Source: Ascidiella aspersa
Lineage: Eukaryota
Length of the DNA stretch: 64,000 nucleotides
Direction of reading: 5' to 3'
Assembly: GCA_963924565.1 (NCBI GenBank)
Contig: OZ004610.1
Coordinates: 6,324,001 to 6,388,000, forward strand
The notes below the pieces were generated by a model. It saw only the letters and a program-made list of their open reading frames with translations. It did not search any database and was not told the origin of the DNA. The position numbers were made by a program, and so were the translations under genes. Position 1 is the first letter of the stretch. The number at the start of each line of letters is the position of its first letter. Positions 1,762 through 30,933 of this stretch are shown here, in pieces.

Positions 1762-1905
1762 ATGTCGTTCGGAACTTCTGCCCACGTCTACCGCTCCATG
1801 TACAACAAGAGACAGGACCGACAGAGGTATATGGCCATCCGAAAACGGACTTCTGAACCGGGTGGTTTGGTCCCTCAAGATACCGGCAATGGTGCGCAGA
1901 AAAAG
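1762..1905 (+). CDS. ANK1/2/3: Candidate alternative first coding exon A (MSFGTSAH...NGAQKK, 48 aa)
   Basis: ATG 1762, open frame, AAG|gtaaac phase-0 donor, ends in KK like ankyrin first exons. Upstream cag at 1751-1753. Confidence 0.6.
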
Positions 1906-2445
1906 GTAAACTAATGTCGTCGTTAAGCATTAAAGAGTGTTTGTTTCTCACTGTCGCTCAACTGGCGTAATTGATCAAATGAAAAGTGCAGAAGGTATTG
2001 ATAAGAATCTAACTTCAATACAATATAACACCATTTATTCAACTGAGCTGCCAGCAAACCAAACACTATAAGCAATTAAGGCCTGGAAGAGATTGCGCAA
2101 GAGGTTGATTTTTCTCACCTTCGGACCAGACTGTGACAATTAGATATTTCTAGTTTTCTAACTCAACGAATTATCACATAAATATTAGCCATTCACGTTC
2201 TTATAGGAATAAATTGCAATATAAATTATAAACTGATTTTGAATAATTCTAGTTTAAATTTGGGTTTTAAAGAATTCGGTAATTTAAAATATAATCTAAT
2301 TTGGGAAAACTAAAATGATCTAATTCTAATTTTAATCTAATTTTAAAAAGGCTCAAGTCCGAGTTTGCTTCCAAAATCTCACTTTTTTATTTAGGACTGT
2401 TAAAAAAAGTGATGGTAACTAAGATGATTTCCTGCATTCATACGA

Positions 2446-2640
2446 TTACCAGGTTGTTTATTTTCAATTTGTTTTAGCGCTATGCAACCTATAGTTACCT
2501 CTGGTTATCAATATGCCATACTTTAAAACATTCCTTTTAAAAATTTTACCAGGTTGTTTATTTACAATTTGCTTTGGGGCTTTCAAACTTATAGACACCT
2601 TTGGTTATCAATATGGTATATTTTAAAACGTTTCGTTTAA
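2446..2640. repeat. Two-copy tandem duplication, 100-bp period
   Basis: ttaccaggttgtttatt at 2446 and 2546. Confidence 0.85.
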
Positions 2641-2785
2641 GCATTGGACCACAAACAACGGCTAAAACACATAAATAATATTATTAAGGAATCGAAACTC
2701 ATATCATCTTAGTATAGGAGTACTGCCACATGGGGTCAGACTTTTGTTCGATTTATTAAACTTTTCGGACATTCCTACTTTGGAG

Positions 2786-2836
2786 CAGGGCTGCAGAGTC
2801 GGACTCGGTGTTATTTTAACCGACTCCGCAGCCCTG
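2786..2836. mobile_element. 51-bp minimal hAT-type MITE
   Basis: TIR CAGGGCTGC(A/G)GAGTCGG; perfect 8-bp TSD ctttggag. Confidence 0.8.
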
Positions 2837-3171
2837 CTTTGGAGGGTGGTCCGGTTTCGATTTTGATGTTGATTAATCAACAATGCAACGCTGGAGTTGC
2901 AGAGTTACCCCGGACGCGGACTCGTAGCTTGAGTTCCGAGTCCTACGTGCGCACTAGCAGTATAGCAATATCCAAACGGATAAGACCGCATGACAGCTGA
3001 TTATAATAAAGGTGAACTGGCATAATATGTTTCAACACGTTATATAGGTGGGCGAGATCTATGACACATCTTTGGGTGGATCGCTGTATATGTACCGTAC
3101 TTTAATTATGGGAATGGGTGGAATACTGGCCTATGCAGTCGGAGTCGGTTAATCTAACTAGACTTATAGGA

Positions 3172-3413
3172 CAGCGTTTCTCAACGGTTGCCCTCGGACC
3201 CCAGGGGTGCCCGCGGCCCCCCAGGGGATCAGTCTTAAGGAGGTATATCTTAGTTTACTAATAAGCCTGTTAATATATTTCTTTTTGATTTTCGTTATGT
3301 CTTTAGAGACCTCTCTTATGATGTCACTTAAAGTGTCTTTCCAAATCGTTAGCAAGAAGGCAACGGAAGGTTTTGTGATAATAGAAGGACTTATAAAAGG
3401 TTAAAAATCACTA
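3172..3413. mobile_element. Degenerate hAT/Charlie-like MITE
   Basis: cagcgtttctcaac ... ggttaaaaatcact termini resembling the CAGTGGTTCTCAACC family; no clean TSD. Confidence 0.5.
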
Positions 3414-3519
3414 CTACAGTACTATAGGACTCTGGAGTTGGAAACTGGAAACTAATGCTTTTTAACCAAACCCCGGCCTGATTCTAACAAAAAACGATCC
3501 TCTGATTTAGAATCGATCT

Positions 3520-3727
3520 ATGTCACTTCCGTACACGCCAAGCGACGCATTGGGCTTCGCTGGTAGTTTCAGTGGTGAGCGTCGACGACCCCACGACCGG
3601 CCACCAGTGTCGCAAAACAGAAGGAACAGCACTTTCGTTCAGCCGTTGTCGGCCGTCGCCAACCGACGTAACACGGAGGCGGCGCTGTGGCCAAAACACG
3701 AAACACCCGTCGAGCGGAGAATAAAAG
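3520..3727 (+). other. Candidate 5' exon B1 (UTR or coding)
   Basis: GC-rich island ending AAG|gtacgt (phase 1 if read from ATG 3520), in frame with exon 7246-7335. Confidence 0.45.
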
Positions 3728-3958
3728 GTACGTGAAAAACACAAAGTCTGAATGTCTAAGAACAAAATTGGGTGATCGTCAATTGTTTGGCGAGATAACT
3801 TTTGTTTATTTGCATCACGTAATGAAATCGAATGGTGGGGAGAAACTAAGGGCTAAACGTAAGCTGCCGGTGAAGCAAAAATTAAAAGATTCGAAACAAT
3901 AATGCGACAAAGTTTGCAAATAATCAGTTCAAACTATTTGCGATATTCAAATTAAGGT

Positions 3959-4138
3959 AATAAGAATATCAAAGCCCATACAGAAGTAGGTATCATTTTG
4001 AACGATTTCGAATATTCGAATATTTTCACCATCTTCAAATGAATAAAGACTTATTCGAAACGTCCAAAATGATACCTACTTCTGTATGGGCTTTGATATT
4101 CTTATTACGTCTTACTACAACCTCCAAGCATTATGCTC
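3959..4138 (+). mobile_element. Penelope-like fold-back element, family B copy 1
   Basis: Inverted arms of about 55 bp plus 30-nt tail; TSD caaattaaggt; CGAAACGT hammerhead-like core. Confidence 0.7.
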
Positions 4139-5183
4139 CAAATTAAGGTGAATTAGCTTTGGAATGGATGTCGAAAGTTACCGGTGCTATTTTACCTGAA
4201 AAAGTAAATTTTCAGAAAAAAGTTACGGGCTACATCCGCTCCTAATTTTTAGTGTACAACATTTACTATAAATCCAGCTGAGTATTTAGAGAAAAGTGAT
4301 CAATTAATTTGCAAACGTGTTTAAATTGTTTGGTGGCGATTTTTCTTCTAAAATTTTTTTCTTCTAAAATTTAAACTTTTAAATAAACAGTTTCCTATCA
4401 TTCATTAAGTACAGAGAGCGTAAATATTTCCCTATTTTTAATATGGACATAACATAAAAAAACCGCCCTTAATGAGTCTAAAATTTTCGACATTTTACTA
4501 AATACAAACTAAAATATATCGCGGATTTGGGAATTATTTGTTACACGTTTTCAAGTAGCTGTGTAAGCTAGACGGCGCCCTGACTCTTTCCAAAATGTCA
4601 TTTTAGACAAATGAATCTAGTTATTGAATTTTTTTAGCGAATTGATGATGTCTGTTTTCATTTTTTGGCTTGCAAACTTTTCATGTTTTTCTGTACTGCC
4701 TTGTAGCTGTGAGATCCAATAAAATGGCCTTTTTATTTTTTTAAAATTTTTAAACGTAAATTAAACATTTAAATTTGCGCAATTTTCCTTTATACCTGAC
4801 TTCTTATTTTTGGAACGAATTTGAAGATAACGGAAGCTTTCCTGAGCTTAAATGATTTACGACGTGCATTTACATTTCCCGACTAAAACACAAATCCTTT
4901 ATCCGCGATGCATTATAAACTCTAAGGAAACCTAGCCGTTCATTTAAAATATCTTACAGTATATATATTAATGTATATTTAAAAAGTTGCTGTTATTCAG
5001 AATCGACGATTTGGGCGAATGTTATAGTGTCAACTGCGATTATCTTAAACTTCTTATTTAAGACTTTGTTAGGATACGCCGATGAACAAGTTTATGTAGC
5101 AGAGGTGTCGATAGTCTGGGACCACGAAATTTTTTAGCTCCAAACCGCCTGCCACCAACATAATGCGACTCCCTACCTTTAGC

Positions 5184-5465
5184 CAGGTTTCTTAACCTGG
5201 GGTACTCGCCCCCCAAGGGGTACAATAAGTGTTCCAAGCGGGCGGGGGGATGCCGAATGAGACACAGAAAATGTATTACTGTAATTTATTTCTTTGCTCA
5301 GTTAGACGTAAAACCAACTCACAAGTTGATATTGTGTTGCAAGTATTATTAGTTACTTGTATGAAACTAAAACTACAATGGTTTTACTATTTAGCAATTC
5401 TAGAAGGGTGTGCGAGAATTGGTTGGTGATTTGCAAGGGGCAAAGAAAAGGGTTAAGAACCACTG
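5184..5465. mobile_element. hAT/Charlie-like MITE
   Basis: caggtttcttaacc ... ggttaagaaccactg TIRs. Confidence 0.6.
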
Positions 5466-7245
5466 ACTTAAGTGATTATATTAGCAAGCGGACCTTAATC
5501 GCCAAGATCGACAGTTGTTGCAAGAAAACTTTCCCGATGGAAGTTGCAGGAAAACATGCCAAATAACGTCGCCGGTTAGGATAAAAACGTGAGATGTATA
5601 CTTTTGCTCAAATCAAACCATGGAACAAAAATATTGTTTTACGGGTTTCAAAAATGTGGCATTCATCTGGGATTTCATGTTATATCATAGCCAAACTATT
5701 TTGCACTGCACATTATAATAAAACGGTCAAAATCGTACTTCTTAGGACTATAAGCAATAATCTTCAAAGTTCAAAATACCGAATGAACTCAAAGTTTAAA
5801 AACCCGAGTTGCCATCAACAGCTATTTTATTAATATATACGCGTCAGCGAAACAACGAACGACAAACAAAAACTTGCTGCCAAAGGTTTTGAATTCCATA
5901 ACGATATGCCCTTTGATCGGCCTATAGTGTCGTTTGAAGAAAAAGTTGACACCTGCGTGTCGAAATTGAACCGCCTGTTAATCGCCCAACAAACGGCAAT
6001 AAATAAAACAACGCTCAGCTGTTTACTATTTTCAAGTAAACCCTAAAACACCCCCTTGAACTGGGATAAGACGGCGCTCGCTCTGGGCTATGAATAATGC
6101 AGGCCTGCCGCACTGCGATATCGGGAAAATTGCCGCACACTGCATTCAGGCGACCAGAAATTATAGATTGACATTGGCCTCTAACGTGGCAGCGGTTAGG
6201 CAGCTTCTTCGTTTTCTTCACAAATCACGTTTAGTTGCCTTTCGAAAGGGCACGGGTGTGCCAGGCAACTTTTCGTGGCCGTGCAGAACGTTTTAGTTTG
6301 CAATCGTTATACGCCTAATTACAACGGTACTTAACTTAGCAGTTTAGTTGTGAAGAACATTGATTTGACCAGCTCAGCAGCAAGCGAAGCTACTTAGGGT
6401 ATTTCCCTATTCTGTCAAAGCAATTGGTTGAATTAAAGTGAGTCCTTACTTTTCTCAGTGAGGTTATATATGCAGTACAGCTTTTAAAAAGCTGATACGT
6501 CTAGCAGATGTGGATTATTAAATTGAAGAGTGTAATCATTGTAACGCACAAATAAGTATTTAAATAAAATGGCGTTTTTTGCAAAAAAACAACAACATAA
6601 ATTTGATTAAAAAATCGATTTTATAGAATATCTTAAATGTTGCTTTGCCAGTAAAAGGAAAAATAGTTAGTTTACTTGATGTGTTACGTTCGTCCAATAA
6701 AGTCTACAAAGTAGTTTTCGACAATAAATCTAACTGAAAAAATAAAAATTGTTTTCTCCAATTTGAGAGTTTATTTTTGGAAACTTTTTGACAATAGAAT
6801 GTGACCTTAAAACCGAATAGTCCCATCAAATAATTCAATAAATCAGGCGCAGCCGGAAAGCAAACTTTAAGTCGAATCGATTGACCCAGCATTGATTTTT
6901 CCGACAAACTTACGCAAGCGCTTTTGCTAATGCTTCCTTAACCAGATTTAAACGAAAAACTGACCAGGTTTAAGTGCGACTAACAACGCTTTAAGTAACA
7001 AAAAACTGAGTGGAAAAAACTTTTTAAAAACAGTTTGCTTTTGCCCCGTAACACACACTTTCCAACTATTTTGCTTATATCACCCTATTTTTTTTTTTAA
7101 GATATATATAAATAACAAAAGTTATGTTATACATATTAAACGATATGTATCATTGCGGATTGTTGTTGGAATAAACTACACAAACACTTGTGTAAAACAA
7201 AAGTCAACATCTATTGACTCCGTTTTACCGATTTATCTCTCAAAG

Positions 7246-7335
7246 GGCTGCACCAGTCGCGTCAATTTCGGAGAAGATTGTCATCGACATCTACCGGAAT
7301 GGTGACGTCACCGGCCGAAACGACAAATGATTCAA
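7246..7335 (+). CDS. ANK1/2/3: Candidate N-terminal exon B2 (...MVTSPAETTNDS)
   Basis: ctctcaaag acceptor, in-frame ATG 7299, A|gtgagt phase-1 donor matching exon 9862. Confidence 0.55.
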
Positions 7336-8295
7336 GTGAGTGAAGACGGCGTTTAATTTATAGCTGGCACTTAAAGTTGACAGCTTTTAAGCATGGTGCG
7401 TTGAACAGAAAATTACATTTATACTAAGACACGATAGATGACGGAGTTTTTTTCGCGGCTGCATACGTGTGATTTTCACAATTGCAGCGTAACAAAACAA
7501 AGGATATCATGCTACTTACAAAAATAACAATAATAAAATAGGGCAGTTTTTTTCAACCAGGTGTATCGTACACCCAGACCCTGGGGTGTGCTATAATAAT
7601 TTTTAAATGGTGTACCACTTTGATGGGGTGTATGCAGGGTGTACCAGATACCGCATTACAATAGAATAGGCCGATGACTAGCTATCTTATAGCAGTTGCG
7701 TTACTTTACCATCTGTAATTCACCATAGCGACGTAATATTCCTATTGTGGTGTAACATCGTGCGACAAGGTGACCTAAAGTAACCTGTTATTTTGGCGTG
7801 ACTTAGTGGCGTGGCGTGGCTTGTTATTCAACAACCACGACGTCAAAGGGAAAGTAGCTCTCGAAACAAGACCTTGCTTCGCACAACTTAGAAAAGAAAT
7901 TACAAGGCAATGCTCGCAATAAAAGACTGATGAAATTTTGTATTTGTAAAAATATAGGCTGTGCATTTCCTGTACCTTGTAACCTTGCTCATCCTTATCC
8001 GATTAGGATTACTACAGATTCGGTTTGTTGCGTGGACTGGGTTGTATACGTTTTGAGTAAACATTAAAAGTGTGTACCCTTTCCAAAAAGGTTGACAAGC
8101 ACTGACATAGGGACAATCGGAGAACACCTGATTTTTCTAACGGTTGTCCGATCCAATGCCAAATGTCGTCATTACAATGATCTAACAAGCACATTTGAAA
8201 AACCGAAACGAAAAGCCATTTTTTTCCATGAAATTAGGCCAACATTTGCTTACGTACGCGATGAAAGCTTATTCATTTTCCAATGTAAATTTTGA

Positions 8296-8412
8296 GTTCC
8301 CCTTCGTCGCATCAACCAATCGTTTGTGATTGGCACCAACACTAAGATCGACATCTCCGGTGTGAAAATCCCAGAGCGTGTAAACGACGCCTACTTCAGG
8401 AGGAAGAAGCTT
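8296..8412 (+). pseudogene. RPL6: Captured internal fragment of 60S ribosomal protein L6 (eL6) coding sequence
   Basis: Translates [39 protein letters not shown]; preceded by TGA; flanked by taaattt direct repeats. Confidence 0.85.
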
Positions 8413-8465
8413 TCTAAATTTAATATTTCCTGCCAATGACACCTCACCCAGACTACTAACGACTT

Positions 8466-8580
8466 TAGGTATGTCCAATAATATCGGTTCGGAGCCGATA
8501 CTGGATGCAAAGTGGTCGATACTAGTCCGATACTAGGGTGGTATCGGTGCCGATCCGATACCAAATTAATGCAGGAACTT
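8466..8580. mobile_element. MITE fragment (CCGATAC-rich family)
   Basis: Reverse-complement match to 42380-42490. Confidence 0.55.
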
Positions 8581-8888
8581 TGGTTTTATGATTTGCGACC
8601 CAAGACAGAATGTCACTGGAAATAACCAAACTTTTTAACGATAAAGCAAACTTTGGCCAAATAACCTGGAAAAGATTACTTTGAGTCTTTAAATTGTATA
8701 TATCTTTCTTGTTCGAGTATATTGATGACGTCATTTAACATCGGATCGGTTGCGATAGGTTTTTGTCAAGGGCAATACATTTAATTGAAGTATGGACTGG
8801 TAAGGATGTTAATACCGGCTAACGAGTAGTTATATAAGTAACTTGACCGAGCCGAAAATAATAAAATCCTTTTGTAAGCGGTACACTG

Positions 8889-8922
<34 letters not shown>
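8889..8922. repeat. (TA)n microsatellite
   Basis: Direct reading. Confidence 0.9.
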
Positions 8923-8923
<1 letters not shown>

Positions 8924-9861
8924 TATTTTGTTTAATAAGCATGATTGTTTCCTTGAATTCATTGCACTACAGTTATCGAAATATCTTGCATTAAACTGTG
9001 CGTACAATGTTCTCCAGATTGAGTACGACACTTTGTAAAGCCCAAAAACAAAATTAATTTTGAATGGACTGTCTTTACTGGCCAAACCGTTAATCAACAG
9101 TAAAATGGTTTTACTAAATTATGGACACCGGTCATAAAAACACGGATAAACCGTACTCAGCAGTCAATTAAACTAAAGGTCATTATATCATTAAAGCAAT
9201 CGGATCCGAAGCCTAATGGGATTTAATTGCAATCGCGCAATTTCCTTATGCCAGTGGTTCTCTATTGGTGCACTTGACGATTCTTAATCTGTTTAAAGTC
9301 GTTATTAAACCTGACTCTTAAACAGTAAATTGCTAACACAAATGTTGCCTTGAGAACCTTTTTAATCGCGGGTCAAAACCAACTTAGAATGGTGTCTGCG
9401 GGCCGTTAAATTTTAACTTTGTAGACTTTACGAATCGTATTACAACAACCGTAACGACTGTTAATCAGGGATAAAATATGACAGTTAGCCATTGAATATG
9501 GGTCTACAAGTTGCACTCGAAGCAGTAATACGATTTGCACAATGCGCAAAAAAAATTGTTTAACTCGATTGAAGTAGCAAACAAATATGAGGAATAGCTT
9601 CATGCCTATAGTAGGTATATAGGTCGCGGGCCGGATAATTTGCGTTGGCGGGCCGTAGGTTGCCCACCCTTCTAATAGGCCTAAGAAGTGCCATTAGACA
9701 AACAGTTTAAAACTGGAAAAACTTCACTTAGATAGTTGTTCAATATACGTTATTATGTTTTCTATCCGTAATCCAAAGTACAAACAAGTTATTTTCCTGT
9801 AGGTTGGCGTATAATTACAACCAGCACTCACATATATTCATCGCCATTTTTGTCTTTGCAG

Positions 9862-9986
9862 TTTCGGCGACCACCAGTGGACAGACAATTCGTGATCACG
9901 TGACCACGTCACGCTCCGGCGAATCGACTACGTCTTCGTCGAGCACCAGGCGATCAAAAAAGAGAAAAAAGAAGAGAGAGGAAAAG
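9862..9986 (+). CDS. ANK1/2/3: N-terminal exon B3 (SATTSGQ...RRSKKRKKKREEK)
   Basis: tttgtctttgcag acceptor phase 1, AAG|gtttgt phase-0 donor, basic tract typical of the ankyrin pre-repeat segment. Confidence 0.7.
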
Positions 9987-10426
9987 GTTTGTTACTTAAA
10001 AATAACTTTTTGAAAAATTGAAAAAAACTGTGATTTGTAGTCAAACATGGAGAACACGGAAATAGGGCGTCAAGGCCATGTCTACGCGACTTTTTAAGTC
10101 CTGTAAAAAAATAATATATCACTGTCCTTGTCACAAAAACCTGATGGCAATTTATCTTAAAATATTCAGCAGAAAACTTTGAACAAGAAAAGTTTTAGAA
10201 CGTTTGTAATTCTTTTTTTGAATGGCAGCGCAATAAAAGAAAGGCAAGTGTTCATATCTGCGTCCATGTGTCGGATATTTCAATCGAACAACAACTGCGA
10301 GCAAGTATCTTGACTTCTTTGTTAAATATACATCACCTCGATTTGACACTATAGTTCTAAGATAAAACACTGTTTTGTAAGTCTTTAAAGGATTCAAAAG
10401 CTTGAATGTCTTAATTCCCTTTAGAC

Positions 10427-10767
10427 CAGGGGTTCTTAAACTGGAGTCCATGGACCCCTTGGGGGTCCGCGAACTAGCTTTAGGGGGTCCGTGGAGGCCT
10501 ACTTGAAATATTAGTGTATATTTAAGAAGTCATCTTTTTTTAAACAAAACAGTTTAATTAAAATTAAAACGGTTTTGCACTGAATTCTATTTAGACTTTA
10601 TTTCACTTTCACATTTTCGGAGCGAAATTAGCAGATTTATGAAGTCTATTTGTGTTGTGACGTCACTTTATGACGTCATTTTGGAATTTTTTTGCCGACA
10701 GACAGTGGTCCACGCAAGGCAAAAAAAAATTTAGGGGTCCGCGGTAAAAAAAGGTTAAGAACCCCTG
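10427..10767. mobile_element. hAT/Charlie-like MITE
   Basis: TIR CAGGGGTTCTTAA; perfect 8-bp TSD ctttagac. Confidence 0.88.
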
Positions 10768-16700: not shown

Positions 16701-19107
16701 AGCAATCGAGAGAAAGAAATAACAAAACGTAGAGGCAATCGAATTAAAAAAGTACGCCGGCGCCTAAACGACAAACGATAAATTAAATAGTGCCAAAATG
16801 CGACTTGGGTGCGTCAGCTTTACGCAGAGGCCAGGCGAGGATCATTAACGCCCGAAATCAATTAGCGTTCCTCTTGCCGTTGATTGGAACTTACCACGTC
16901 GTCTGGAAAGCCAAGGAGTCGAGCTAATCAAGCGCGCTTGGCAGCCCTAAATTTACCAGTCCTTGGAAATTGGCCCGCTGGGACCCGGCGCCGACTCGGT
17001 GCAAAACTTTCCCCGCCCTGGTACTCCTGGCGCCGGGCGCAAGTTATTCGAAATCAATATTTGAAACGGCTCTGCTTCTGCTACTTCTTCTGACACTGTT
17101 TTGTCCCATTGACTTTGACCGCATGTAAGACACACCAAGTCTCGTTGCTGTTTGCAGGTCAGACACTAAAATATTTTAAAAGATTGTTATATATTTAGCC
17201 AGCAAGGGCATTCATTTAAAATTAAGATAACCTTGGCTGGCGAAATATGAATATCTTTTTAGATCTTTTAATAGGTTCTGACCTGAATTGCTAGCTTTGC
17301 TAGAGTATTCTGTTGTTTGCCGTGTGGTATCGTGTCTGGCGAAGGCGCGGAATGCATGTGAATAATGCAAGTTTGTTGAGTGAGTCTTGTACATTGGAAT
17401 GTTTTATTGGCTGTAATGCTGGCTATTTTGTTGTGTGTTAGAGACAGTTGCTAAGAGGCCAACATGAATAAGGTAAAAAACAACAGGTAGGTAGAGGTTT
17501 TAACGCGTTTGAGCCGCCATTATAGCACGTTCAGTTCTACTTTGTAACGATTCCGTGTCACACATAAATGCCAATGGGTCACATCACGTATAAAAATCGT
17601 GAAAAACGCATTGACAGCGCAATAACACCAAACCGTATAGTTTGCTCATTTACGTCAATGATGGCTGTTTAAATCATCCAGGTCATTGCTGTGTCAACCT
17701 TAGAATATGGGATTTATCTTTTAAAATAAAGTAAATCTCATATTCTAATGATTTCTGAACCATTCTAATGGTTTCTGGACCATTAGAATAGAGATTTCGT
17801 TGCTTTAAATTAATCGGTTTACTCGTGTTGTATTTTATTTCGGTAAAGGCTGGTTGTGCCTACTACATTATAGATATAGTAGAAAAAGTGAATTTAAACC
17901 TAGCTAAATGTGACTGTTGCGTTAATAGAATCGACGGGAAAATATTGTTTAGGCGCTGGTCTAGAATCCTATCACATTTTCGTCCCAGAGTTTATATTGC
18001 TGACTTTCTATATTTTCGTTGCGAGCGTTTTGGTTCGGGTGGGTCAAGCATTGTTATAATTATTCTCCCATTTTTATTTTTTGCTTGCAATTTCATTTTT
18101 AAAAACTCGTTTTGTCGCTGTAAAAAAGTGGCAAGATAGACAAGCGCCAGTTTGTGTTTCAGTTGACCCTGAGCAGCGTAAAACAAAGCGAAAACTGCAA
18201 ATGCGGAATCATTTCACGAGAAAAGTAACAGACGTGTGGCAGCCAGGGTCAGACTGGGTCAGAACCAAAGTACTTCATTTCATTCCAGGCTATGACGCCT
18301 GAATAAACATTGATTTGAGAAAACACACATGTGAAATTTGCTGACAACCTTGCTTTCAGTCGTACGTAAGGCAAGAAGAAATTATTCTTAAAATCTACGA
18401 CTTTATAAGAGCGGTATTCTAAGTACATTTAATATTCATCATCCTTCTTGACATCGCTCCAAGTTTATGAATTGTAATTTTTTAGTCTAAATTAAGATTG
18501 AACAGTTATTTGGTTGTAAAATTTGTCATTGCAGTTTTTGTTGTGTTCTGTTTTATGACTGGCTGTTTGATAGGTCATAGAGTATTTTGAACACTTACAT
18601 GACTTTATATGTAACTTCTTTTTTGCTGTCATCTGGACTGAATATTTTTGATACACCTAGTTAAATCGCTCAAAACCCGCATTGTTTGGATATTTAAAAC
18701 AAACCGGTTCACAATGTGCTATGTAGATTATTGTTCTATTGGCAGCGCTACCGATTTGCACAGTTTCCAAATAAAATATGATATTCATTTTGCCTACCCA
18801 ATTTTTAGGGACCGCAAATTACAGGGCAAATGCAGTTTGCATAAAAAAACAGAGAAGGTAATCAACTCTAATGACACAATAATAACAATTAACAAATCTG
18901 TAATATTGCAATATATTTTCCGTTTTAATGCCTCTTGGCTTACAATAACACATAATTCAACGCCGGTACCCGCATTATGTAAACGTGATTTCAATAAAAT
19001 AAACATTTACGGGACATGTCCATTTTCTTTGGTCTTTCTGAATTTAATTGACTAATATAATTATCTAACTCAAATAAGTTTCTTTTTTGCAAAACAATGC
19101 AATCCCT

Positions 19108-19235
19108 AATAAGAATATCCAAGCCCATACAGAAGTAGGTATCTCTTGAGTTATTCGAAACGTTCAAGAGGATAACTACTTCTGTATGGGCTTTGATATT
19201 CTTATTACGTCTTACTACCTCCAACCATCATACTC
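19108..19235 (+). mobile_element. Penelope-like fold-back element, family B copy 2
   Basis: Same arms and tail; TSD caatgcaatccct. Confidence 0.7.
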
Positions 19236-21278
19236 CAATGCAATCCCTGTCTTATTGTTTCATGGATCATCATGTCGGGTTTTATGATTTTCATTAAAAA
19301 AACAACTACGAAACTTGAGTCACGCACGTTTGGATAGACAGCTAACCCAAATGACGTGGGGTTATAATGACAGAAAGTGCTGACCAAACGATTTCAACTG
19401 AAATCAGTTCAAAAAACACGACTGTTGTCAAGTTCATAGGAAATACGACGGCTCTGCAGACATTTCGATCTAGCTTAAGTAGAATTCTGCAGGGACTTCT
19501 GTGGTTTAAAGGCACCTCACAATGTATTCAAATGGCATATGGTACGTCATACGGCAATGTCACCCTTAGGCACCGCTGCCAACTGCTATGTTGGTAATGC
19601 ACGAGATATCAGCATGTTGGATGTGGCCTTCGAATAATTCAAGCTTTCGAAACCTAATGACTTTAGTCATGTTTAGTTACAATGTTAAGGCGAATGTTTC
19701 GTGGTAATTTTATCTATTTTAAACATTAGAGCTGCACATACTGCCTCGAATTACTTGACAACAAAAATGATTTATTTCGGTATGCAAAAATCCTACAGTA
19801 AGCTTATTCTTTTAAAAATGGTTTTGTTGAAATACTAGTTTTTAACTGTAGATGTCAAATTAATTTATTCACAAGTCCTTTACAACTAAATCAAGAATTG
19901 ATGATTTTTCCCTCGATATGCATAGTGACCTTGAATGGTGGTTTGGTGGGGTTGCCCAAAATGTCGTTACAACCGAAAAATCGATACAATCGAATTTATA
20001 TCAAATCGTGCATTTCTAATCCAAGGCCAAGCATTGTTCAATGTCTGATTGCAAATTTTCGCATCAATATGTCGAGATCTAGTCTATAAGGTCGTCTAAT
20101 GTAACTTGACGAGAAACCAGGGATCAACGTGGATTTAAGCATTTCTAAGCAATTTCGATCTAAATTTATGATATTTGAATTTGAGTTTGAAGATTTTTGA
20201 ACAGCTTAGTGTTTCCAGCACAAACTAAATTAACTTTATCTGCTTTAAGTTTTAACCAGTACATTTTAGCCTGGGTGATTTCGTGAAATAACTTTTTATT
20301 TTGTAATAAATTTGACGTCATTAATATGTGATAGGTATCGCTCTCAACAACGATAAATTGCATTTAAGAAAACTTCTGCTGTTTAAAAAGTATGCATAAA
20401 GCCTGGCCCATAGTTTTATGGGTCGCTAGTCCTGTATGTTGGGTTGTACTAATAATGTAAATCATAAGTAGTTCATTAAGAGAGATGTCAAACTTTAAAT
20501 GCTCCAACATTGTCTGCTGTAAAATGCAAAACAAATCATCGGAAAACATTCCGAAACTTAATAAAGCTGATCTGCTTTTTGCGTTTATTGCAATACTTGT
20601 TTGTTTTTTCATTAGTTCCAATAATTAAACTCACGCAGTTTTCTGTAGAATGAAACTTATTCTTTTGAATTCTCGTCATTCTAGCGTGCAGGTATAAAAT
20701 TGAATGTCATTGTAGTTAAGGTATTGCTTAAGTTAATCAAGTAGTCAGTAAAACCATTGACAGATTAAAAAATCTAATTATTAATCGCACTTCAAAGGAT
20801 TTAAGTGCTCACAAGACAAAATCATAACAATCGATTTACACACACTTATAAAAAATAATCTGCAACACATGTCGGCACTGGAAAATTAATTACGCTATAA
20901 AGAACTGTATATGACTTCAGTCAGCTATCGTAGAAATGCGATAAAGTAAGAACGAATTGTTTTCGAAATTTCCTTTTGTCAGTCAAGTGATAGGTTATGT
21001 ATAACGAACATGGAATTTGACAACACCAGACAGAATTCTTATTAATTACCGTTCAGTTGTATAAAAAGATATAAAGAGCTTTTAGTTGTTTGTAGTTAAA
21101 GTATTTAAATAATTCTTGAATGTTGAAAATCGCTTGTAGTCTCGTTGTTTGACTTCTCAGAACCGTTACTTATATTTTCTTTATTCATTCAGAAGTTTCG
21201 TTTATAGCAAACCCCTCAAAAGGGTTCAGCGTTGACAGTTTTGAACGCAACTGTATTTGATTTGCCGCAATATACACT

Positions 21279-21623
21279 ATGGCCAAGGGTGCCGGCTACC
21301 TTCTGAACAGCGTCAACCAAAAGAAGATTCGCGAAAAGTCGAACAAGAATCGTGCCAGCGTCGACACCTCGTGTCCGCAACGACCCGAAATCACAAGCCG
21401 CGCGACGTCGCTGTCGAGCACATCAACACCACGAAATCGCGGATGCCGGCATTGCAGAAGAAATCACGGCGACCGGGATCTCGGACTCGAATGCCTGCAA
21501 AACATGTGCGTAAAGTGCATCGGGTGCGACAAGATACTGCGCATGCGCAGCTCGGGAGAAAACGGAACGACTCGGATCACTGTAAGGTCTTGCTGCGCCG
21601 ATTACAGGGGCCGGTTGGCGAAG
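21279..21623 (+). CDS. Candidate alternative first exon C, Cys-rich (115 aa)
   Basis: GC-rich 130-aa ORF with two phase-0 donors (ACT|gtaagg after 21581, AAG|gtaaaa after 21623). Confidence 0.55.
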
Positions 21624-22524: not shown

Positions 22525-22985
22525 CAGTGTTCTCTACCTTTTTAGCTTGCGGACCGGTAAAGTTTAAAAACAAATTTTGCGGACCGGCGGACCTTCATGA
22601 ATCAAATCCACCCAAAATGTATCTACGACAAAAGTGTGCAACTTAAAAGCAAAGAAGGAAAACTTCAATTTAATGAGCCTCTTGCTGCTGTTTGTTTTAT
22701 TCATACGTGTTATACGTGATTCTAGCGAAGTTTTTGACATACAACTGGTCCCAAAGTTTAAGAATTAAATAAGGTGTAGCCTACTTTTAGACAAGTAAGC
22801 ACAAAACTTGCAGCATTTTGGCGTACGATAAAGTTCTAAGTAAACCATTAACTCTGTGTTACATCACAATGTTACAAATTACGGAGCGGGCGAAGTGAAT
22901 TTAATGGGCAAGTCTTCAACATCTTGCATTGTGCAATTGAGATATAAAATAGTAATATATTGAAAACGACGATTGAGAACCACTG
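22525..22985. mobile_element. hAT/Charlie-like MITE, same family as 57203-57661 (opposite orientation)
   Basis: TIRs; 8-bp TSD gtctagta; subterminal similarity to the reverse complement of 57590-57661. Confidence 0.85.
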
Positions 22986-25589
22986 GTCTAGTAGACACAG
23001 CCACTTTGTGGCGTTTCGGTCTTCAGGTTGAACCGACGTCGCCCCGCTTTTCCCGCTTTTGCGTCACGCCCAATGAGTTATGTTTTGTTCCCAGGCACTC
23101 GACAGTGTTAAGTCGCATACCTGGGCAACTGGTTGGCGGCGTTTGGTTTCGCGGAATATGTTAAATAGTTCCCTGGGTGATCGCTGATTACTACAAAGAC
23201 AGTCAAGTGGCGAGCAATTATCTGCTGTTAACCAGCTGGAACGGTGTGTTTGTTGTTAGAACTATAGCGTAGTACGGTAGACAGCTATTCCCTGGACGAA
23301 AGTATTTGGAATCATTGTGTGGTTATCTGTTGACAAAGATAATTATTCAACTGAAACATCTGGTAATTTCGAGTTAATTCAGTGTTAAATTTAATAACAA
23401 GACACGTTAAATATTAAGCTGTTACTGTTTGTGTTTCTCCAGCTGTGTTAATAACTGATTAAATATTGCTGGATTTATTTTGCGCCTTAAGTTAACGAGC
23501 TACTAACTAACATTTTAGGGCTTTCGCGCAGTCAATTAATATAATATTTTTTAATTGGTATGGCCACGAAGATATAAGTTACCATCGTCTGCGTTTCGTT
23601 AATACTTTTGGCTAATGGATTTCCGCCACCAAATTATCGACTAATCCCCACGTGGCGTTTGTATATATTGGTAAAAAAGCAATATCGACTTGCCAGCCTG
23701 ATTTTCGTCTTGATTTACGGCTTCTAGTGTACAGCGCCTCGTCGCGGTTTTTATTGGGAATTTGCGTCCTTGGGAAACGGCATTAGCGGTTGTAATTTGG
23801 CAGACAGCGTGCCTGCAATCAGTTACCCCCCGGCAACAGCTTGACTGGGCGCGCGTCGCAAAGCAAACACACTGTTCTTGCTTATCGTTCGACTCCCTCG
23901 TACAGTTTCCTACTTAAGAGTGCAAAAACAGCTTGAAAAGTGTAGCCCCGGGATATTTGAATTCAGCAATTAGCAAACGGTCTTGGGTATGACCATAGGT
24001 CGCTTACCAGTGACCGGATGTTACAGTATACTGTTTTACCGCAGCTGTTGTATGTGCTTGGTGATTTTCGGTAGCTAGCTTTTTTTTAACAGTAATTATT
24101 TCATTATTAATTAGTGGCATAACAAAATACTCTGGGACTAGCATCTTACTTTGTATGTTAGCGGTAATTTATTAGGATTGTAAGCGATTGACCTTATTTA
24201 TGTACAGACAACGCCTAGCAACATCAAGAAGATGTACACTTGTACAGTGCTAGAACAGGCACTTTTTCAACAACATAAACCAGTCGGTGTAAGATTTATT
24301 AAACCGTGAGACATTAACACTAAGGTAATCTACAGAACGTGAGTCATTTGACGTAATACAGATCCAGACAAGCTAAAGCGATTATTTTGAGAGAAATTTA
24401 ACGTCGTGCTGAACAGAAAAAAGCTCAGGCTGATTTTGTCAAGTGGGAGATTCGGTTCTAAGTGCTATCGAAAGCTCACTCAAGCAAAACGTCTACAATA
24501 GTACACGCAATTGCCAGTCAGAAATGCCAGTAATGGCTTCAGTCTATCTACTATTGGCGAGCTACAAATTTTAACAGTTTTCTTCACAACCATTTTATTA
24601 ATTTAGGTAGTTATCCTGTAGCTTGTAATAAAGCAGTGCGGAGCCTTTACAGGTAAAGGCATTTTATAATATATCAATTGAAGTGATTTGACAGGCTTAC
24701 CCAACAGTTTTAGTCTTTACATGTTTAAAAATTGTATAGGCGTGTATGCCGTTTTAGGGTTTATTGCGTTGCAAACGCTAATAAGATCAACTGTAGTTTA
24801 GTGTTGTTTTTGCCAAACTGTTTTTCAAGAAATGCTATAATCAGTTAAGTTAAATACTTTGAACAAAATGTACAATTCAAATGGACAACATTGCTTTACT
24901 GGAGGCTTACTACTTTTTAACTATCGTTTGCTTATTACAAATGTTCATTTAATTGTTTTAATATTTTATTGAAGCTGTTTTAATTGCATTGTAATCAATC
25001 TTGTTTTGTTTGCTTGCTCTTAACAATCGACGAGTAACAATGCAGAGAGCTCAGTTTCAAACACGTGAGAGTCGTGAGACCCATATTTCAGTTGAAAGCA
25101 TTCTCTAATTATTTTTGAGTCACAGAAGAGTTCTTGGAAGCACAACAGTCGCTAGTACAGTATATCTTACAAGAAGTTGCTCATGCCGGTAACCAGCATG
25201 CCTGTTAATAGTTAACTTCGTGTAGCGGTATTAAGTTTAAACAAGCTATTGGCGCAAGTGCTTCGCCGTTTGTCGTTGTAACATTACGTTTCATAGTGCT
25301 AGTGAGTTATACAGCCACTTCTAGACAAGGGTTGTCACTTTTAGGAAATTTAATATGAAATTTGATAAAATTAAACGCGATTTCGTTTACAAAATAACAT
25401 GTACTGTACTTGTCAAGCATGGAATATAACTATTTTATGAAACAAAATATCGTTGGTTTTGAGAGAACAGCCAGCAGCTAGTTTTTTTGCAAGATTTCAG
25501 TGTGTATCTGCATTACAAAGTTTTCATAAGATAAACCATACGAACGTTGGAAATTTGCAGCGCCACTCACTTTAGGCGTGACACATGTA

Positions 25590-25712
25590 ATGGTATTGGA
25601 AAAGGAGCTAATGGCTGAAGAAATGGAACTACCGCCGTCGGATATTAAAAGGGCGCCCAAATACGCCAGCACAGTCCGGAAAGTTAATGATCCCACTGCC
25701 AGTATGCGAGAG
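25590..25712 (+). CDS. ANK1/2/3: Candidate alternative first exon D (MVLEKELMAEEMELPP...ASMRE)
   Basis: ATG 25590/25611, open frame, GAG|gtaagg phase-0 donor, ttgcag acceptor ending 25560. Confidence 0.6.
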
Positions 25713-28201
25713 GTAAGGCTGTGATCTCAGAAACATGTTATTTGCAATAACCCTTTCTTCGCTGAAATTGCACCGTGCGAAAATGTAAGTTTCGCTGATT
25801 GCTGAAAGATGTACATTTTCTGTCGTTTCGTTGTATAGATATGCTTGACTGTGTGCAGCGCCACTTTAAATACGTTTTGCAGGTTTAAAATGTATGGTGG
25901 AATCAGTTTATGCTCGAATTGTTTCTGTCTTGGTTTTAAATATGACTTTCCAGCGAACGTTTTCGTATATTTTTTTCTAGCTTAATACTGGTATCATTGT
26001 ATACCTAAAAAGCTTGAAGCTGTTTGCCCGTCCAAGTGAAGTCGATATTTACAGAACGCCGGTCATGTGAAAAGTGTTTACATAAAAGTGCCGCTAAACC
26101 AACAACTAAAGGGTATATAAGTGAAGTCGTTTTGGGGCCTTTTTCTCGCATATTTACACCTAGAAACCCATTCGAAGTTTTACCTTAAAAATAGTTGCGT
26201 TGAAGGTTTTAACTTTGGTAATCATCGATTCTATACAGGTAATACTTCTATTTGGGAATTTTCATTTATTTGAACTCACAATCTGAATTTAAGTAACATT
26301 GTTCAACACTTGTTGTATTATTTCGTAAATTCTAGTTGAAATTTGTGTCTATAAATTAGCAAATCACCGGCCATACCAAAATTAGAACTGATTTTTCGGT
26401 TGTAAGATCTGTACGTGATTTTATTCACCGGATTACGAAATCAATCTATGTTTTTCACTAATGTTATTGTTTTATTTGGAAGAATTATTTGATGTTTTGT
26501 TAATTTAGAACGTTCCCGTGTTTTGTTATTTTGTTCCAACAACCTTTCCAATATTAAAAGAAACAAAAAATAACTCGGCAATCACCATGGCATCTTAGTA
26601 AGTTGGTTTGCCGTTATTTTGTTGTTATACCAATTTTCTAACTGAAGACAACATGCAGCAAGGCCATGTTATAAAAATTGTTTCGCGACGGGGCTGACGT
26701 ATGAGGCCATTCGATAGCGACCCCCCCTCACCCATCCGCAAAAACTTACACAACCAAAACAGTTTTCATGGCATTTGGCATTGGCGCTGTCTCATCGATG
26801 TCGCTTCCATCGTCTTATTTTCTTTTCCCTGTGTTTAGTTTGTCGTACGCGACGCTCATAATTTATGCATTAATCTTCCCCTCACTCACCTTTTCCAATT
26901 CTCTCCACAACTCCTCCCCTGTTCTCTCCATACTCTTTTGTTCTCTTCTCTTTTTCTTATTTCTCTCTCTTGTTCTCTTTCTTTACGCTTTTTCCAATAA
27001 AAACGGCGTCGAGCGAAAGAGAGAAAAACGACACGGAAAATAGAAGACAGACGCAGCGAAACAGAGCGAGAAATCGATCTTCTCGTTGCAAGTGGCATCT
27101 GCAACAGCCCCCCCCCAAATTGCTAGCTGTGGAGTGCGGGCGTTCCAGCACACGCGTCGCTGTGCTGAAATGCGCCGGGCACCGCCCCTGGCTTGGCAGT
27201 CAGTGTACCTGTCCGCCGCATGCAGTCCGCCCACCCGCTGCTTAAAGGCTTGCTGGGTAATTTGTTGGGAAACAAAGTTGAGAGCAGAGCCTTAGTCCGA
27301 GAAGAAATGAATATGAAAGTGCATTTAGTGTTTTTCTACAGCTGTTTTTAAAGAGAAAAGGTGAAATAGTTTCGTTTGTTGACATTTATAAGATTTACTA
27401 CCTTTAAAGCTGTTAGTTACTTACATCCGTTAAAAGTTTAGATTTCGTTTGAAATAACAATTTTTAGTTTTTTGGCTTTTTTCTTTAGGATTTGATGTGT
27501 CAGCATAATACAAGATCTAAAAAATAATGGAGATTTTATTGGAAGTCACGTTTTTATAAGATTATAACGTCATATTAATGATGTAGTTTGAAAACACGGC
27601 TGCTTAACAGAAAATTAAGTAACTCGCAAGTAACGGTGGTTTCAATAGAAATATCTTGCCCTGAGCTATATAGTTGCAAGGCGTAGAAGGTTAATGGCCT
27701 ATTACCGGATTGCGCTAATGATATACTACCACTCCTATGACATCTGTATCACTTGAGCTTTTGCAGTTAAGAGGATTATAGACGCGTCGGGTCGTCGCCG
27801 GCCTTTCTGTCAGGAATTTTTCTTAGGTTATCTAAGGAAATTAGGTAATTAAAGACAGTACAACATATTAGTGTTTGAAAACAGATACAATAGCTGAACA
27901 AGAGGCACAGTTCGATCATATAATAACTCTTAAGTTGTGTTCGTTGGACCAGTTGGGTATTTTCTTCTAGTAAATTTAGTAATTCAATTAGTTGTGAAGC
28001 AGTTTAATATTGAAATTTACAAAACAGCTGCAATATATCAGAAAGAGAGGCAGACCATGAATCGTGTGTTTAATGGTCACTTTATGTTCTTCGCAACAGA
28101 CAACAAGTTGGGTATTTTTTTGTCGCCAGCTTCTTAGTCACTTTGCTTGCTAGTCGCATATGGGCGCCGTCTAAATTATTTATCGCCAAAAACGATCAGC
28201 C

Positions 28202-28249
28202 ATGGTAATTGCTGGAGAATCGACGACTTCCAGCACGTCTACGTCAAGC
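28202..28249 (+). CDS. ANK1/2/3: Candidate alternative first exon E (MVIAGESTTSSTSTSS)
   Basis: Strong Kozak context gccATGG, consensus AGC|gtaagt phase-0 donor. Confidence 0.6.
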
Positions 28250-30831
28250 GTAAGTTCAAAAACGTCCAACAGGTTTTTGTTTTGTTGTTGTTCGAAGCTT
28301 TGTTCTCTCGTTCACGCCTATTGGCACCTATCAACAGCGAACAAGGTTCAAGCTGTTTACGCAAAAAATTACCTGCTTTGAGTTCCAATTTGAATTAAAA
28401 ACCAATGTCCGGGAATGTGTAGGGACTCGCGTTTAAAAAAGCCACTCTCTATTCTTCAATCGTAATGCTTGCTTTTGTATTTGTTAAGTTAATGTTTTTA
28501 CAGTGTATATGTGAACCTGACGGGAAATAAATTAGGAGTACATAAATAGAGAAAATGATAGTCATGTGTATATTACTTTCGCTATTTACATAGCCCTGAT
28601 GATTTAGGATTTGTTTAGCTTGCTTTTACGATTTTTAATAGGTTATTCGACAAAAGACATGGTAATATATCTTTTTGATGGCATCGTGTTTGTCAACTAT
28701 ACCTTTCTCCATACAGTTTGATTTTTGATTTCCAATTTCACGTGAAACCTTTTAAGAAACAAACGTTGGCGTATGGCGAAAACGTGCGTTTACCAAATAT
28801 CTGTTCTAGCACGTTAAATCGAGATTACAAAGAGTAAAGACGATAGGATTTTCACGCTTGGTATAGCATTGCAGCAGGTCGAATCCAATTTGTCCGGCAT
28901 ATTTGGAGTTTGCGACAGCTTGCGTATACGCAACAGCGACCATATAGGTCACGCATGACGATCAATTGCCCGGGCCAGCAACGGTCAACGGTCAATGGGA
29001 ATGGTCGTCAAATAATTAGATTCCCGACCTCCAGACGGACCGAAGGGGCTACGACCTCGTCCCTATATGGTGGCATATGTGCTGAATTCATTCTTTGCAA
29101 AAACAGACTGGTTTTATTACTTGTGTAACACGCGTACGCATTGGACGAAAATTATGTTATGAACTACAGCGTACTTTAGTGGTAAATACCTGTGAAATTT
29201 GGGAACGTTCAATTTCAACTACCTCCACTATAAACCCCAGTGTGACACTTTTATCAACAAGGTTTACAAATGTGCTAAAATAAAGTTACCTGTACGACAG
29301 AAGGCTTTGTAATTAAAATGTTGTTTATATCGTTCTAATAAGTACAAACGTGGTAAACTTTTATCATATTTACTATAATTTATCTTTCTCTATCTGCTAG
29401 AAACGCATAGTGTTTTACTTAAAACAAATCGTTTGAATATATTGTTGGTGCACTATTTTCTTGGCCTAGCGTTAAATTTCAGAGATACGCGAACGAAGCT
29501 ATAAAAAATACATTTTTTCTTTTAATTTTGTTTATCACATGAGTCAGTCAGACGCGAGGTAGAATTTTGCTCACTGTAGTGGAACACACAATGGAGTTCC
29601 GCGCGTTTTGAGCTAATACAGCGTCCTTTGTTCTTTTGTACTCGTGCTTGTTTCACAAAGTGGGATGCTGATGGGAACTTCTATCTGAGTTTTCTCCCTT
29701 CTTGTTTGAAGGCTTCGGTCTGTTATTAGGTTTGGGTACTGGTGGCAATTCTCTATATTCTAACCTTAATCTTTTTTCGTACCGCTCCATGTTCTACCCT
29801 CAGTTCATTCAATAAAGAATATTTGAAATACAGTGAAAAAATAACATATTTTCAACTCCTATTCAAAATTCGTGTTAATTCGATTTCACTAGCATATCAA
29901 AACTGTCATTTAAAAAAGCGCAAAAAAACAAAGCAGTACGAATTCGCTCCAAGGCAAGTTATGTTGGACATAATCCTTTTATTGCTTTTTAGTAAATGGT
30001 CATAAAGCAGAAGTTATTCCTTCTGCTGCTCTTATTGTAAGTCCTAGTTGTGGTTATTTAACCCCTAATCTGGACCTGGAAAAGTGTCGCCTTGTCACTG
30101 GCAATTTACCCTGAATTTAACACATGCGACATTGTGTTGTTAACATGTCCGTAGCAAAACAGCATACGTAGGAATCCTTACATTTTTACCGAACCTGTCG
30201 CTATGGAATACATGTGGAACTAATTAAGGCCCTGATATTAACATAACCCTAATGTTACTCAAGACTGTTAAGCTTAAAATGATAGTTTTTCTATCTATTG
30301 GCGTCAGTCTGAATTCAGTGTACGTTCCAATCCTTAAATTAGAACATAAGTAATTATTGGGGAGATTATTTTTTACTTTGTTTTAAAATTATCGTTCTGT
30401 TTAAGTTTTCTCAAAAAAAATAGTTTTTGTTATATTCAACGACTTTTTAACTGCATTATATCTTCACTTGAGCAATACAATTGTATACGTGAGTTTGCAG
30501 ACGACGCCAAGACACTAATACAATACTTTAAACAAATTTTTTTTGTTGAAATCAATGTATTTCTTGTAGGGCGAAATTTTGTCGGAAAAATATATTTTTA
30601 GATCAAAATTTCAATTTTTTAGGTCAAAATTTCTCATTTTTTAGGTAAAAAATAATCGCCTTAGTAATAAGGTTTTTTTTTCAAAAACCCAGCCATACTT
30701 AGTTTTCAAATTGACGAGTTTTACTCTGTTTGTTTTTGACATGTTTTAACGTTTTTAGTGTAGATGTGTAGCCTTTCGATTCACCCGTTCAAAAACTCTT
30801 GTCAAAAACTTAATCCTTCTTTCTTTTTCAG

Positions 30832-30933
30832 GGGGGAGGCGGAAGTCTTCTGCGCGCCGCCAGGTCGGGAAACGTTGAAAAGCTCACAACCCTTTTGGAC
30901 CAGGACAACATCGATATCTCCACCTCGAACAGC
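30832..30933 (+). CDS. ANK1/2/3: Ankyrin exon, ANK repeat 1 (common exon 2)
   Basis: GGGGSLLRAARSGNVEKLTTLLDQDNIDISTSNS; 102 nt, phase 0/0. Confidence 0.95.

What the first reader, a model, noticed from the sequence alone, without database searches (positions are those of the whole stretch)
1762..30933. Array of at least five alternative N-terminal exons feeding one ankyrin exon 2
Seen: five separate ATG-initiated open frames (1762-1905; 7299-7335 plus 9862-9986, possibly extended from 3520; 21279-21623; 25590-25712; 28202-28249). All end at a phase-0 GT donor, the phase required by the ANK repeat 1 exon at 30832. Known: vertebrate ANK1/2/3 use multiple promoters and first exons. Inference: a single-copy invertebrate-chordate ankyrin diversifies its N-terminus by promoter choice across about 30 kb, with basic, acidic, Ser/Thr-rich and Cys-rich leaders.
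Basis: partly seen in the sequence, partly recalled or inferred. Interest (0 to 1): 0.7.

Follow-up and report, generated by a model that had tools for sequence, protein, structure and literature searches.

The report
Sea-squirt ankyrin with switchable N-termini
A sea squirt's single ankyrin gene carries several candidate starting exons, one of them shown joined to the shared second exon and two more likely real, much like the known arrangement in mammals; the main one also closes into an RNA ring, likely because it begins with a splice-acceptor site.

Summary
The coordinates, frames and phase-0 donors are correct. Long ATG-to-strong-donor frames exceed chance: 4 found, against 0.3 in shuffles. 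The gene is an apparently single-copy ascidian ankyrin. Support differs by leader. 25590-25712 is shown: a spliced contig joins 25712>30832, and the leader is conserved in Clavelina and Ciona. 21279-21623 is likely: 4 of 4 coding SNPs are synonymous. 28202-28249 resembles Botryllus and Clavelina N-termini. 1762 and 7299/9862 have sequence-signal support only. Clavelina RefSeq already lists three N-termini, and mouse Ank3 has five first exons, so the architecture is a known kind.

One correction: the main leader is not a plain first exon. It starts at a used splice acceptor (25561). The same contig joins the exon-5 donor (34045) back to it, giving a 551-nt circle (581 = 551 + 30). The genome holds 573 spliced-leader (SL) donor matches, so 25561 is likely an SL trans-splice acceptor that also permits back-splicing. 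Promoters and tissue use were not tested, and the circle rests on one contig.

The parts
1762..1905 (+). Candidate leader A, 48 aa, basic; unverified (about 0.55)
   Evidence: Donor score 9.1; codon usage above 99% of 168 background frames and best in this frame; second-strongest acceptor-like site of the upstream 30.7 kb at 1568, with two upstream ATGs after it; no RNA test, no homologue found
3520..3727 (+). Candidate upstream exon feeding 9862 (phase-1 donor); unverified
   Evidence: Donor 10.6; joins 9862-9986 in frame; codon score high but not frame-specific
7299..7335 (+). Candidate short upstream exon feeding 9862 (phase-1 donor); weakest part
   Evidence: In-frame join; donor 6.9; codon score unremarkable, 22% of background as high
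9862..9986 (+). Candidate internal exon of leader B, Ser/Thr-rich then basic (about 0.6)
   Evidence: Acceptor 9.8, top 0.6% of AG sites; shares a 7-residue motif with leader E, 5 of 7 codons differing synonymously, reached by 2 of 20,000 shuffles; no RNA test
21193..21623 (+). Leader C exon: acceptor-like start at 21193, ATG 21279, 115 aa with 9 Cys; likely coding (about 0.85)
   Evidence: 4 of 4 coding SNPs synonymous in the ATG frame, P about 0.003-0.006; strongest codon-usage segment on the + strand upstream of exon 2; strongest acceptor-like site of about 1,630 AGs; RNA contig covers 21197-21569; junction to 30832 not listed
25561..25712 (+). Leader D exon (ATG 25590, 41 aa); conserved main N-terminus; begins at a used splice acceptor
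   Evidence: Joint 25712>30832 GT..AG in contig 3 of run X3; Clavelina leader scores 61 here against 13 for the next best of 506 donor-ending frames; Ciona leader 15 of 22 identical, counted by eye; acceptor joined to the exon-5 donor
28202..28249 (+). Leader E, 16 aa, Ser/Thr-rich; likely (about 0.7)
   Evidence: Resembles by eye the Botryllus transcript N-terminus and Clavelina isoform X9, but the Clavelina match scores only 10, not above background; 0 of 20 differences of a 458-nt contig fall in it, P = 0.11; junction not listed
30832..30933 (+). Common exon 2, ANK repeat 1
   Evidence: 82% identical to Clavelina ankyrin residues 37-70; spliced on both sides in X3
31906..32004 (+). Exon 3 (in the circle)
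   Evidence: Joints 30933>31906 and 32004>32575
32575..32673 (+). Exon 4 (in the circle)
   Evidence: Joint and loose end
33947..34045 (+). Exon 5; its donor is joined back to 25561
   Evidence: The loose 5' end of contig 3 equals the end of this exon, unique in the genome; the loose 3' end equals its start; circle 551 nt + 30 = contig length 581

Best explanation
This is the 5' region of an ascidian's apparently single ankyrin gene, in which the 25590 leader is spliced to the common ANK-repeat-1 exon and at least two further leaders (21279, 28202) likely are too, likely each from its own promoter. The main leader exon starts at a splice acceptor (25561) that is used. It is likely an unpaired acceptor that normally receives the 16-nt spliced leader after transcription starts a little upstream. 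Because that acceptor has no upstream cis partner, the exon-5 donor can likely attack it instead, giving the 551-nt back-spliced RNA seen in one contig. Shown: gene identity, junction 25712>30832, junction 34045>25561, SL donor arrays in the genome. Inferred: the other leaders' junctions, separate promoters, SL addition, circularity in vivo, and any function of the leaders. My odds: three or more real leaders 0.9; all five 0.4; separate promoters 0.75; SL addition at 25561 0.6.
For: Spliced contig of run X3: 25712>30832>31906>32575, all GT..AG. Clavelina orthologue: 8 of 8 cluster members join the same exon-2 start, with 3 distinct N-termini (6, 1 and 1 isoforms). Leader D is conserved in Clavelina and Ciona. 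Leader C has 4 of 4 synonymous SNPs. Leader E resembles the Botryllus N-terminus and shares a motif with exon 9862. The two strongest acceptor-like sites of the upstream 30.7 kb lie 86 and 194 nt before leader ATGs C and A. The SL-plus-GT pattern has 573 matches against 1 for the control, many at 584-bp spacing. Satou 2006 (PMC1488885, passages) states that SL trans-splicing uses unpaired acceptors. About half of Ciona genes are trans-spliced (PMC4691747, passages). No inverted repeat links the circle's flanking introns, so intron pairing is not an evident driver. The neighbouring gene, meckelin, points away and starts about 5.4 kb before the window, leaving the 30 kb to ankyrin.
Against: Only 1 of the 5 proposed junctions is shown, from one contig of one run whose library is not on record. 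Leaders A and B have no RNA or homology support. Acceptor 25561 scores weakly on the cis-acceptor matrix (2.9; 17% of AG sites score as high). Donor-like sites exist within 2.5 kb upstream of 25561 (24652) and 21193 (19541, 20945), so short non-coding first exons could explain the acceptors without SL. The Clavelina acidic leader has no counterpart here, so leader sets turn over. The codon-usage score does not single out the proven leader D (12.5% of background as high), so it is a weak discriminator for A and B. No SL was seen on any ankyrin RNA.
Confidence: 0.6

Rival explanations
1. Leaders are cis-spliced second exons: one or a few upstream promoters with short non-coding first exons feed mutually exclusive start-codon exons, with no SL involvement. 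The circle is then an ordinary internal-exon circRNA.
For: Leader exons C and D (and possibly A) have acceptors. Donor-like sites lie upstream at 24652, 20945, 19541 and 437-554. Back-splicing to a second exon is the common circRNA pattern (recalled).
Against: Contig 3 shows no upstream linear exon, and the contig over leader C starts 4 nt inside the acceptor with no loose end listed, though 8 loose-end rows were hidden. SL arrays are present. Contigs cannot show 5' ends.
Confidence: 0.2
2. Only two or three leaders are real (D, C, perhaps E). The 1762, 3520, 7299 and 9862 frames are GC-rich regulatory or non-coding segments that end at good donors by chance or belong to a separate short transcript.
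For: No homologue or RNA for A or B. The unclaimed frame 147-437 also passes the length-and-donor test yet has background codon usage, so that test yields false positives. 18 GC-rich islands lie in the 31 kb.
Against: Motif shared by 9862 and 28202 with synonymous codon changes; top-ranked acceptors at 1568 and 9862; frame-specific codon bias at 1762; two phase-1 donors match the phase of exon 9862.
Confidence: 0.15
3. The 34045>25561 junction is not a circle but a tandem exon duplication in the sequenced individual, intragenic trans-splicing between two ankyrin pre-mRNAs, or a reverse-transcription artefact.
For: One contig, one run; an assembly graph cannot tell a ring from a linear repeat of exons.
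Against: Both ends are exact canonical splice sites, unlike template switching. The exon-5 end occurs once in the assembly. DNA contigs inside and outside the unit have similar depth (X1 52-56; X2 77-100; weak evidence). Even if linear, the junction shows that 25561 is a live acceptor.
Confidence: 0.05

Closest known systems
Mouse Ank3 alternative first exons 1a-1e (PMC4449188, passages)
   Same: Five alternative first exons upstream of a common exon 2 in an ankyrin gene; each changes the N-terminus ahead of ANK repeat 1.
   Different: Spread over about 409 kb against 30 kb here; tissue use is measured there and untested here. No leader here resembles a vertebrate leader beyond composition (basic ends; by eye). 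The main leader exon here begins at a used acceptor.
Clavelina lepadiformis LOC143448417 RefSeq isoforms X4-X11
   Same: Orthologue (68% in ZU5; 82% in exon 2); three N-termini join at the same residue; its major leader is homologous to 25590-25712.
   Different: It has an acidic 20-aa leader not found here. No counterpart of the Cys-rich, 1762 or 9862 leaders among the 8 isoforms seen; isoforms X1-X3 were not retrieved.
Ciona intestinalis and Botryllus schlosseri ankyrins (Jegla 2016, PMC5135030; passages and rows of supplementary file 2)
   Same: Single tunicate ankyrin gene; in Ciona a giant exon lies before the death domain; the Ciona N-terminus matches leader D and the Botryllus N-terminus resembles leader E.
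   Different: The paper lists one N-terminus per species; 'first exon' and 'promoter' do not occur in its main text.
SL trans-spliced genes of Ciona (PMC1488885, PMC4691747; passages)
   Same: Identical 16-nt SL donor in tandem arrays in this genome; acceptor just upstream of a start codon.
   Different: SL addition to ankyrin is not shown here. Use of such an acceptor for back-splicing was not seen in the listings of three searches.
Exonic circular RNAs made by back-splicing
   Same: Downstream donor joined to upstream acceptor at canonical sites; contig length equals ring plus 30.
   Different: The acceptor belongs to the start-codon leader exon, so the ring holds the ATG and would encode 178 aa; no flanking inverted repeat was found.

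Membership tests
Canonical ankyrin (ANK-ZU5-ZU5-UPA-DD) | N-terminal ANK repeat array followed by ZU5 | tested here: met
   Pfam Ank and ZU5 hits; colinear tblastn of Clavelina ankyrin residues 36-1442 along the locus
Canonical ankyrin (ANK-ZU5-ZU5-UPA-DD) | UPA and death domain downstream | tested here: inconclusive
   Colinear matches to Clavelina residues 1396-1633 continue beyond the window; these exons were not scanned against Pfam, so the domain names rest on the orthologue's precomputed Pfam list
Canonical ankyrin (ANK-ZU5-ZU5-UPA-DD) | Single copy, as in other tunicates | tested here: met
   Two exon queries each gave 1 match, the window itself; the tool gives lower bounds
Vertebrate-type alternative first-exon array (ANK1/2/3) | Several different N-terminal coding exons splice to the same repeat-1 exon | tested here: inconclusive
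   1 of 5 junctions shown in this species; three N-termini annotated in the Clavelina orthologue; indirect support for leaders C and E
Vertebrate-type alternative first-exon array (ANK1/2/3) | Each leader exon has its own transcription start | not testable with these tools
   Contigs cannot show starts; no CAGE or 5'-RACE data
Vertebrate-type alternative first-exon array (ANK1/2/3) | Leader exon is a true first exon, with no 3' splice site at its 5' end | tested here: not met
   For leader D the 5' boundary 25561 is used as an acceptor; not tested for the others
Vertebrate-type alternative first-exon array (ANK1/2/3) | Tissue-specific leader use | not testable with these tools
   One informative run; tissue not on record
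SL trans-spliced transcript | Organism has SL RNA genes | tested here: met
   573 matches against 1 control, tandem 584-bp spacing among the first 100 listed
SL trans-spliced transcript | Functional acceptor upstream of the start codon | tested here: met
   25561 used; 21193 predicted only
SL trans-spliced transcript | Acceptor is unpaired (no upstream cis donor in the transcript) | tested here: inconclusive
   Donor-like sites exist upstream; the transcript start is unknown
SL trans-spliced transcript | SL sequence on the mRNA 5' end | not testable with these tools
   A 16-nt leader is shorter than the 31-letter words of the contigs; the raw-read run showed no depth on the ankyrin exons
Exonic circRNA | Downstream donor joined to upstream acceptor at canonical sites | tested here: met
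   34045>25561
Exonic circRNA | Covalently closed (RNase R resistant, not a linear exon repeat) | not testable with these tools
   Length arithmetic fits a ring but would also fit a linear repeat

The most novel reading that the evidence does not exclude
In trans-splicing chordates, the unpaired SL acceptor at the front of a 'first' exon doubles as a back-splice acceptor, so SL addition and circularisation compete for one site and produce start-codon-bearing circular RNAs from leader exons, a route closed to ordinary vertebrate first exons. Here each ankyrin leader would be an acceptor-fronted module, and N-terminus choice could partly be made by alternative trans-splicing along one long pre-mRNA.
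Probability: 0.3. Interest if true: 0.62.

Novelty: new variant of a known kind. Interest (0 to 1): 0.4.

Why it matters
The leader array itself repeats what is known for vertebrate ankyrins and is partly annotated in Clavelina. It does show that N-terminal choice exists in the single pre-duplication chordate ankyrin, in a compact 30-kb locus that is easy to test, with one leader conserved across three ascidians and others apparently turning over. The added point is mechanistic: if SL acceptors serve as back-splice acceptors, trans-splicing animals would have a built-in source of ATG-containing circular RNAs, which can be tested genome-wide in existing Ciona data.

Tried and rejected
No RNA holder was listed on record by the run search; this is no evidence on expression. 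Raw-read run X4 (about 6% read) had depth almost only on repeats and none in the bins holding leader D, exon 3 and exon 4: uninformative. X3 listed no joint from 21581, 21623 or 28249, and one contig runs unspliced through 28249; contigs drop rare forms, so this is not absence. X3 had little or no cover in non-repeat bins between 13468 and 21196; not used as evidence. The first lay was swamped by repeats (15 of 105 joints shown). Leader C: no homologue among 318 candidates; Atlas hits all under 0.9 and bacterial, rejected; single-sequence fold pLDDT 47.9, not searched further. Pfam gave no meaningful family for 6 leader frames. Searches for more tunicate ankyrins returned only Clavelina among named hits. 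The Clavelina acidic leader was not found from 30 kb upstream of the window to exon 2. Frames 147-437 and 18714-18857 were rejected as leaders on background codon usage. No inverted or direct repeat links the circle's flanking introns. Earlier findings near this place: none. Literature: circRNA + back-splicing + ankyrin + ANK2 gave 0 papers; one search listed unrelated ANKRD/ANKIB circRNAs (15 of 47 listed); others (20 of 354 listed) showed no title or abstract start on back-splicing to SL acceptors; the library lacks most subscription papers. PMC9386378 held none of the terms; PMC3074122, PMC6836712 and PMC2760879 (passages) did not print the SL letters.

Full report
Observation. With a donor matrix from 19 of the gene's own exons, frames of 120 nt or more ending in a strong phase-0 donor number 4 in 1-30831, against 0 on the reverse strand and 0.3 in 40 local shuffles, none reaching 4. 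Thresholds were set post hoc. Short candidates are only marginally enriched (15 against 8.2 +/- 3.3).

Gene. The exons encode ANK repeats and ZU5. The best hit is Clavelina lepadiformis ankyrin, 68% against 56% for the best vertebrate hit, and it aligns colinearly along the locus, so the organism is very likely an ascidian. Two exon queries each found only this locus. The upstream neighbour is meckelin on the other strand (4 of 4 exons hit PF09773); its likely first coding exon lies about 5.4 kb before the window (no Pfam hit for that exon). The 30 kb thus belong to ankyrin's 5' region.

Relatives. All 8 Clavelina isoforms in the cluster share the exon-2 start and carry 3 different N-termini. 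The commonest matches 25590-25712: end-anchored score 61 against 13 for the next best of 506 donor-ending frames. The Ciona N-terminus in Jegla 2016 (PMC5135030, supplementary file 2, row seen) is 15 of 22 identical to it by eye. The Botryllus transcript in the same file begins with a short Ser/Thr-rich leader resembling 28202-28249 (by eye). Clavelina X9 is similar in length and composition but scores no better than background. The Clavelina acidic leader has no counterpart here. Vertebrate ankyrins in the fetched set show several leader classes per paralogue, and mouse Ank3 has five first exons with tissue-specific use (PMC4449188, passages).

RNA. Four runs were listed. X1 and X2 behave as DNA; X4 (raw RNA reads, 6% read) showed no depth on leader D or exons 3-4. 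X3 has no library record but holds spliced contigs, so it derives from RNA. Its contig 3 (581 nt) joins 25712>30832, 30933>31906 and 32004>32575 at GT..AG: leader D is shown. Another contig covers 21197-21569 with 5 differences, 4 inside the 21279 frame. All 4 are synonymous in that frame (1 of 4 and 0 of 4 in the other frames; P about 0.003-0.006), so leader C is likely under coding constraint. No joint from C or E was listed, which contigs cannot turn into absence. For B, a 7-residue motif is shared with leader E, with 5 of 7 codons differing synonymously (2 of 20,000 shuffles), and its acceptor ranks in the top 0.6%. For A, codon bias is frame-specific. The same codon score does not single out the proven leader D, so it is weak evidence.

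The unexpected part. Contig 3 has 28 loose letters before leader D. They are the end of exon 5 (33947-34045), found once in the genome. The contig therefore joins donor 34045 back to an acceptor at 25561, 29 nt before the ATG. The five exons sum to 551 nt, and 551 + 30 equals the contig length, as expected for a cycle in a 31-letter assembly graph; the ring would encode 178 aa from the leader ATG. No inverted repeat links the flanking introns. DNA contig depths do not double over the unit (weak). A linear exon repeat cannot be excluded from one contig. Either way, leader D's exon has a live 3' splice site and is not a plain first exon.

Mechanism. Ascidians trans-splice a 16-nt leader to about half of their genes (PMC4691747, passages), at acceptors with no upstream donor (PMC1488885, passages and Table 1). 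That leader plus GT has 573 matches in this genome against 1 for the control, in 584-bp tandem arrays. The two strongest acceptor-like sites among about 1,630 AGs upstream of exon 2 lie just before leaders C (21193) and A (1568), and the contig over C begins 4 nt inside 21193. I infer several promoters, each followed by a short discarded 5' segment and an acceptor-fronted leader exon that receives the SL and splices to exon 2, with the free acceptor sometimes captured in cis by the exon-5 donor. Against this: 25561 scores poorly as a cis acceptor (2.9), donor-like sites upstream could mark non-coding first exons, and no SL was seen on ankyrin RNA.

Verdict. The finding is real in outline and of a known kind. 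'At least five' is unproven (one shown, two likely, two open) and promoters are untested. The acceptor-fronted leader with a back-spliced product makes it a variant. Three searches (listings only, 20 of 354 seen) showed no paper on back-splicing to SL acceptors; the library is incomplete and bioRxiv supplements were closed, so priority is not established. Interest 0.4.

Noticed in passing
G000:C4, window-equivalent 66679-86016 (just downstream of the window; L004-L006): A 6,446-codon open frame (about 19.3 kb) lies between the matches to Clavelina residues 1396-1442 and 1487-1548, the position of the giant ankyrin exon; longer than the 13.3-kb Ciona exon of PMC5135030 and with an internal repetitive stretch.
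   Followed up: partly
window 8294-8418: A 125-nt piece of a ribosomal protein L6e gene (PF01159, E 2e-13), 99% identical to G000:C2:10428399-10428523, sits in the ankyrin 5' region without evident splice sites: likely a recent captured or retroposed fragment.
   Followed up: partly
L001-L003, minus strand, about 5.4 to 26 kb upstream of the window: Meckelin (TMEM67) gene lies head-to-head with ankyrin.
   Followed up: partly
G000:C3:5218799-5450447 and elsewhere: Tandem arrays of SL donor sequences at 584-bp spacing, broken every few units by gaps of about 8 kb; the leader is identical to the Ciona SL.
   Followed up: no
window 49972-50060: A partial second copy of the end of ANK exon 49645-49842 lies just downstream of it (61.5% in the tblastn frame).
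   Followed up: no
protein P0003 (Sardina pilchardus ankyrin-2 model): Its N-terminus places repeat-3 sequence before repeat 1, the only such case among the fetched proteins; possibly a back-spliced or duplicated exon absorbed into a gene model.
   Followed up: no
window 27001-27325: The most GC-rich island of the region (0.66), 0.9 kb upstream of leader E and followed by a donor-like site at 27360: a candidate promoter or non-coding first exon.
   Followed up: no
window 96404-96484 and 104919-104999 equivalents (L007-L008): Two equally scoring matches to Clavelina residues 1882-1908, suggesting a duplicated 3' exon.
   Followed up: no
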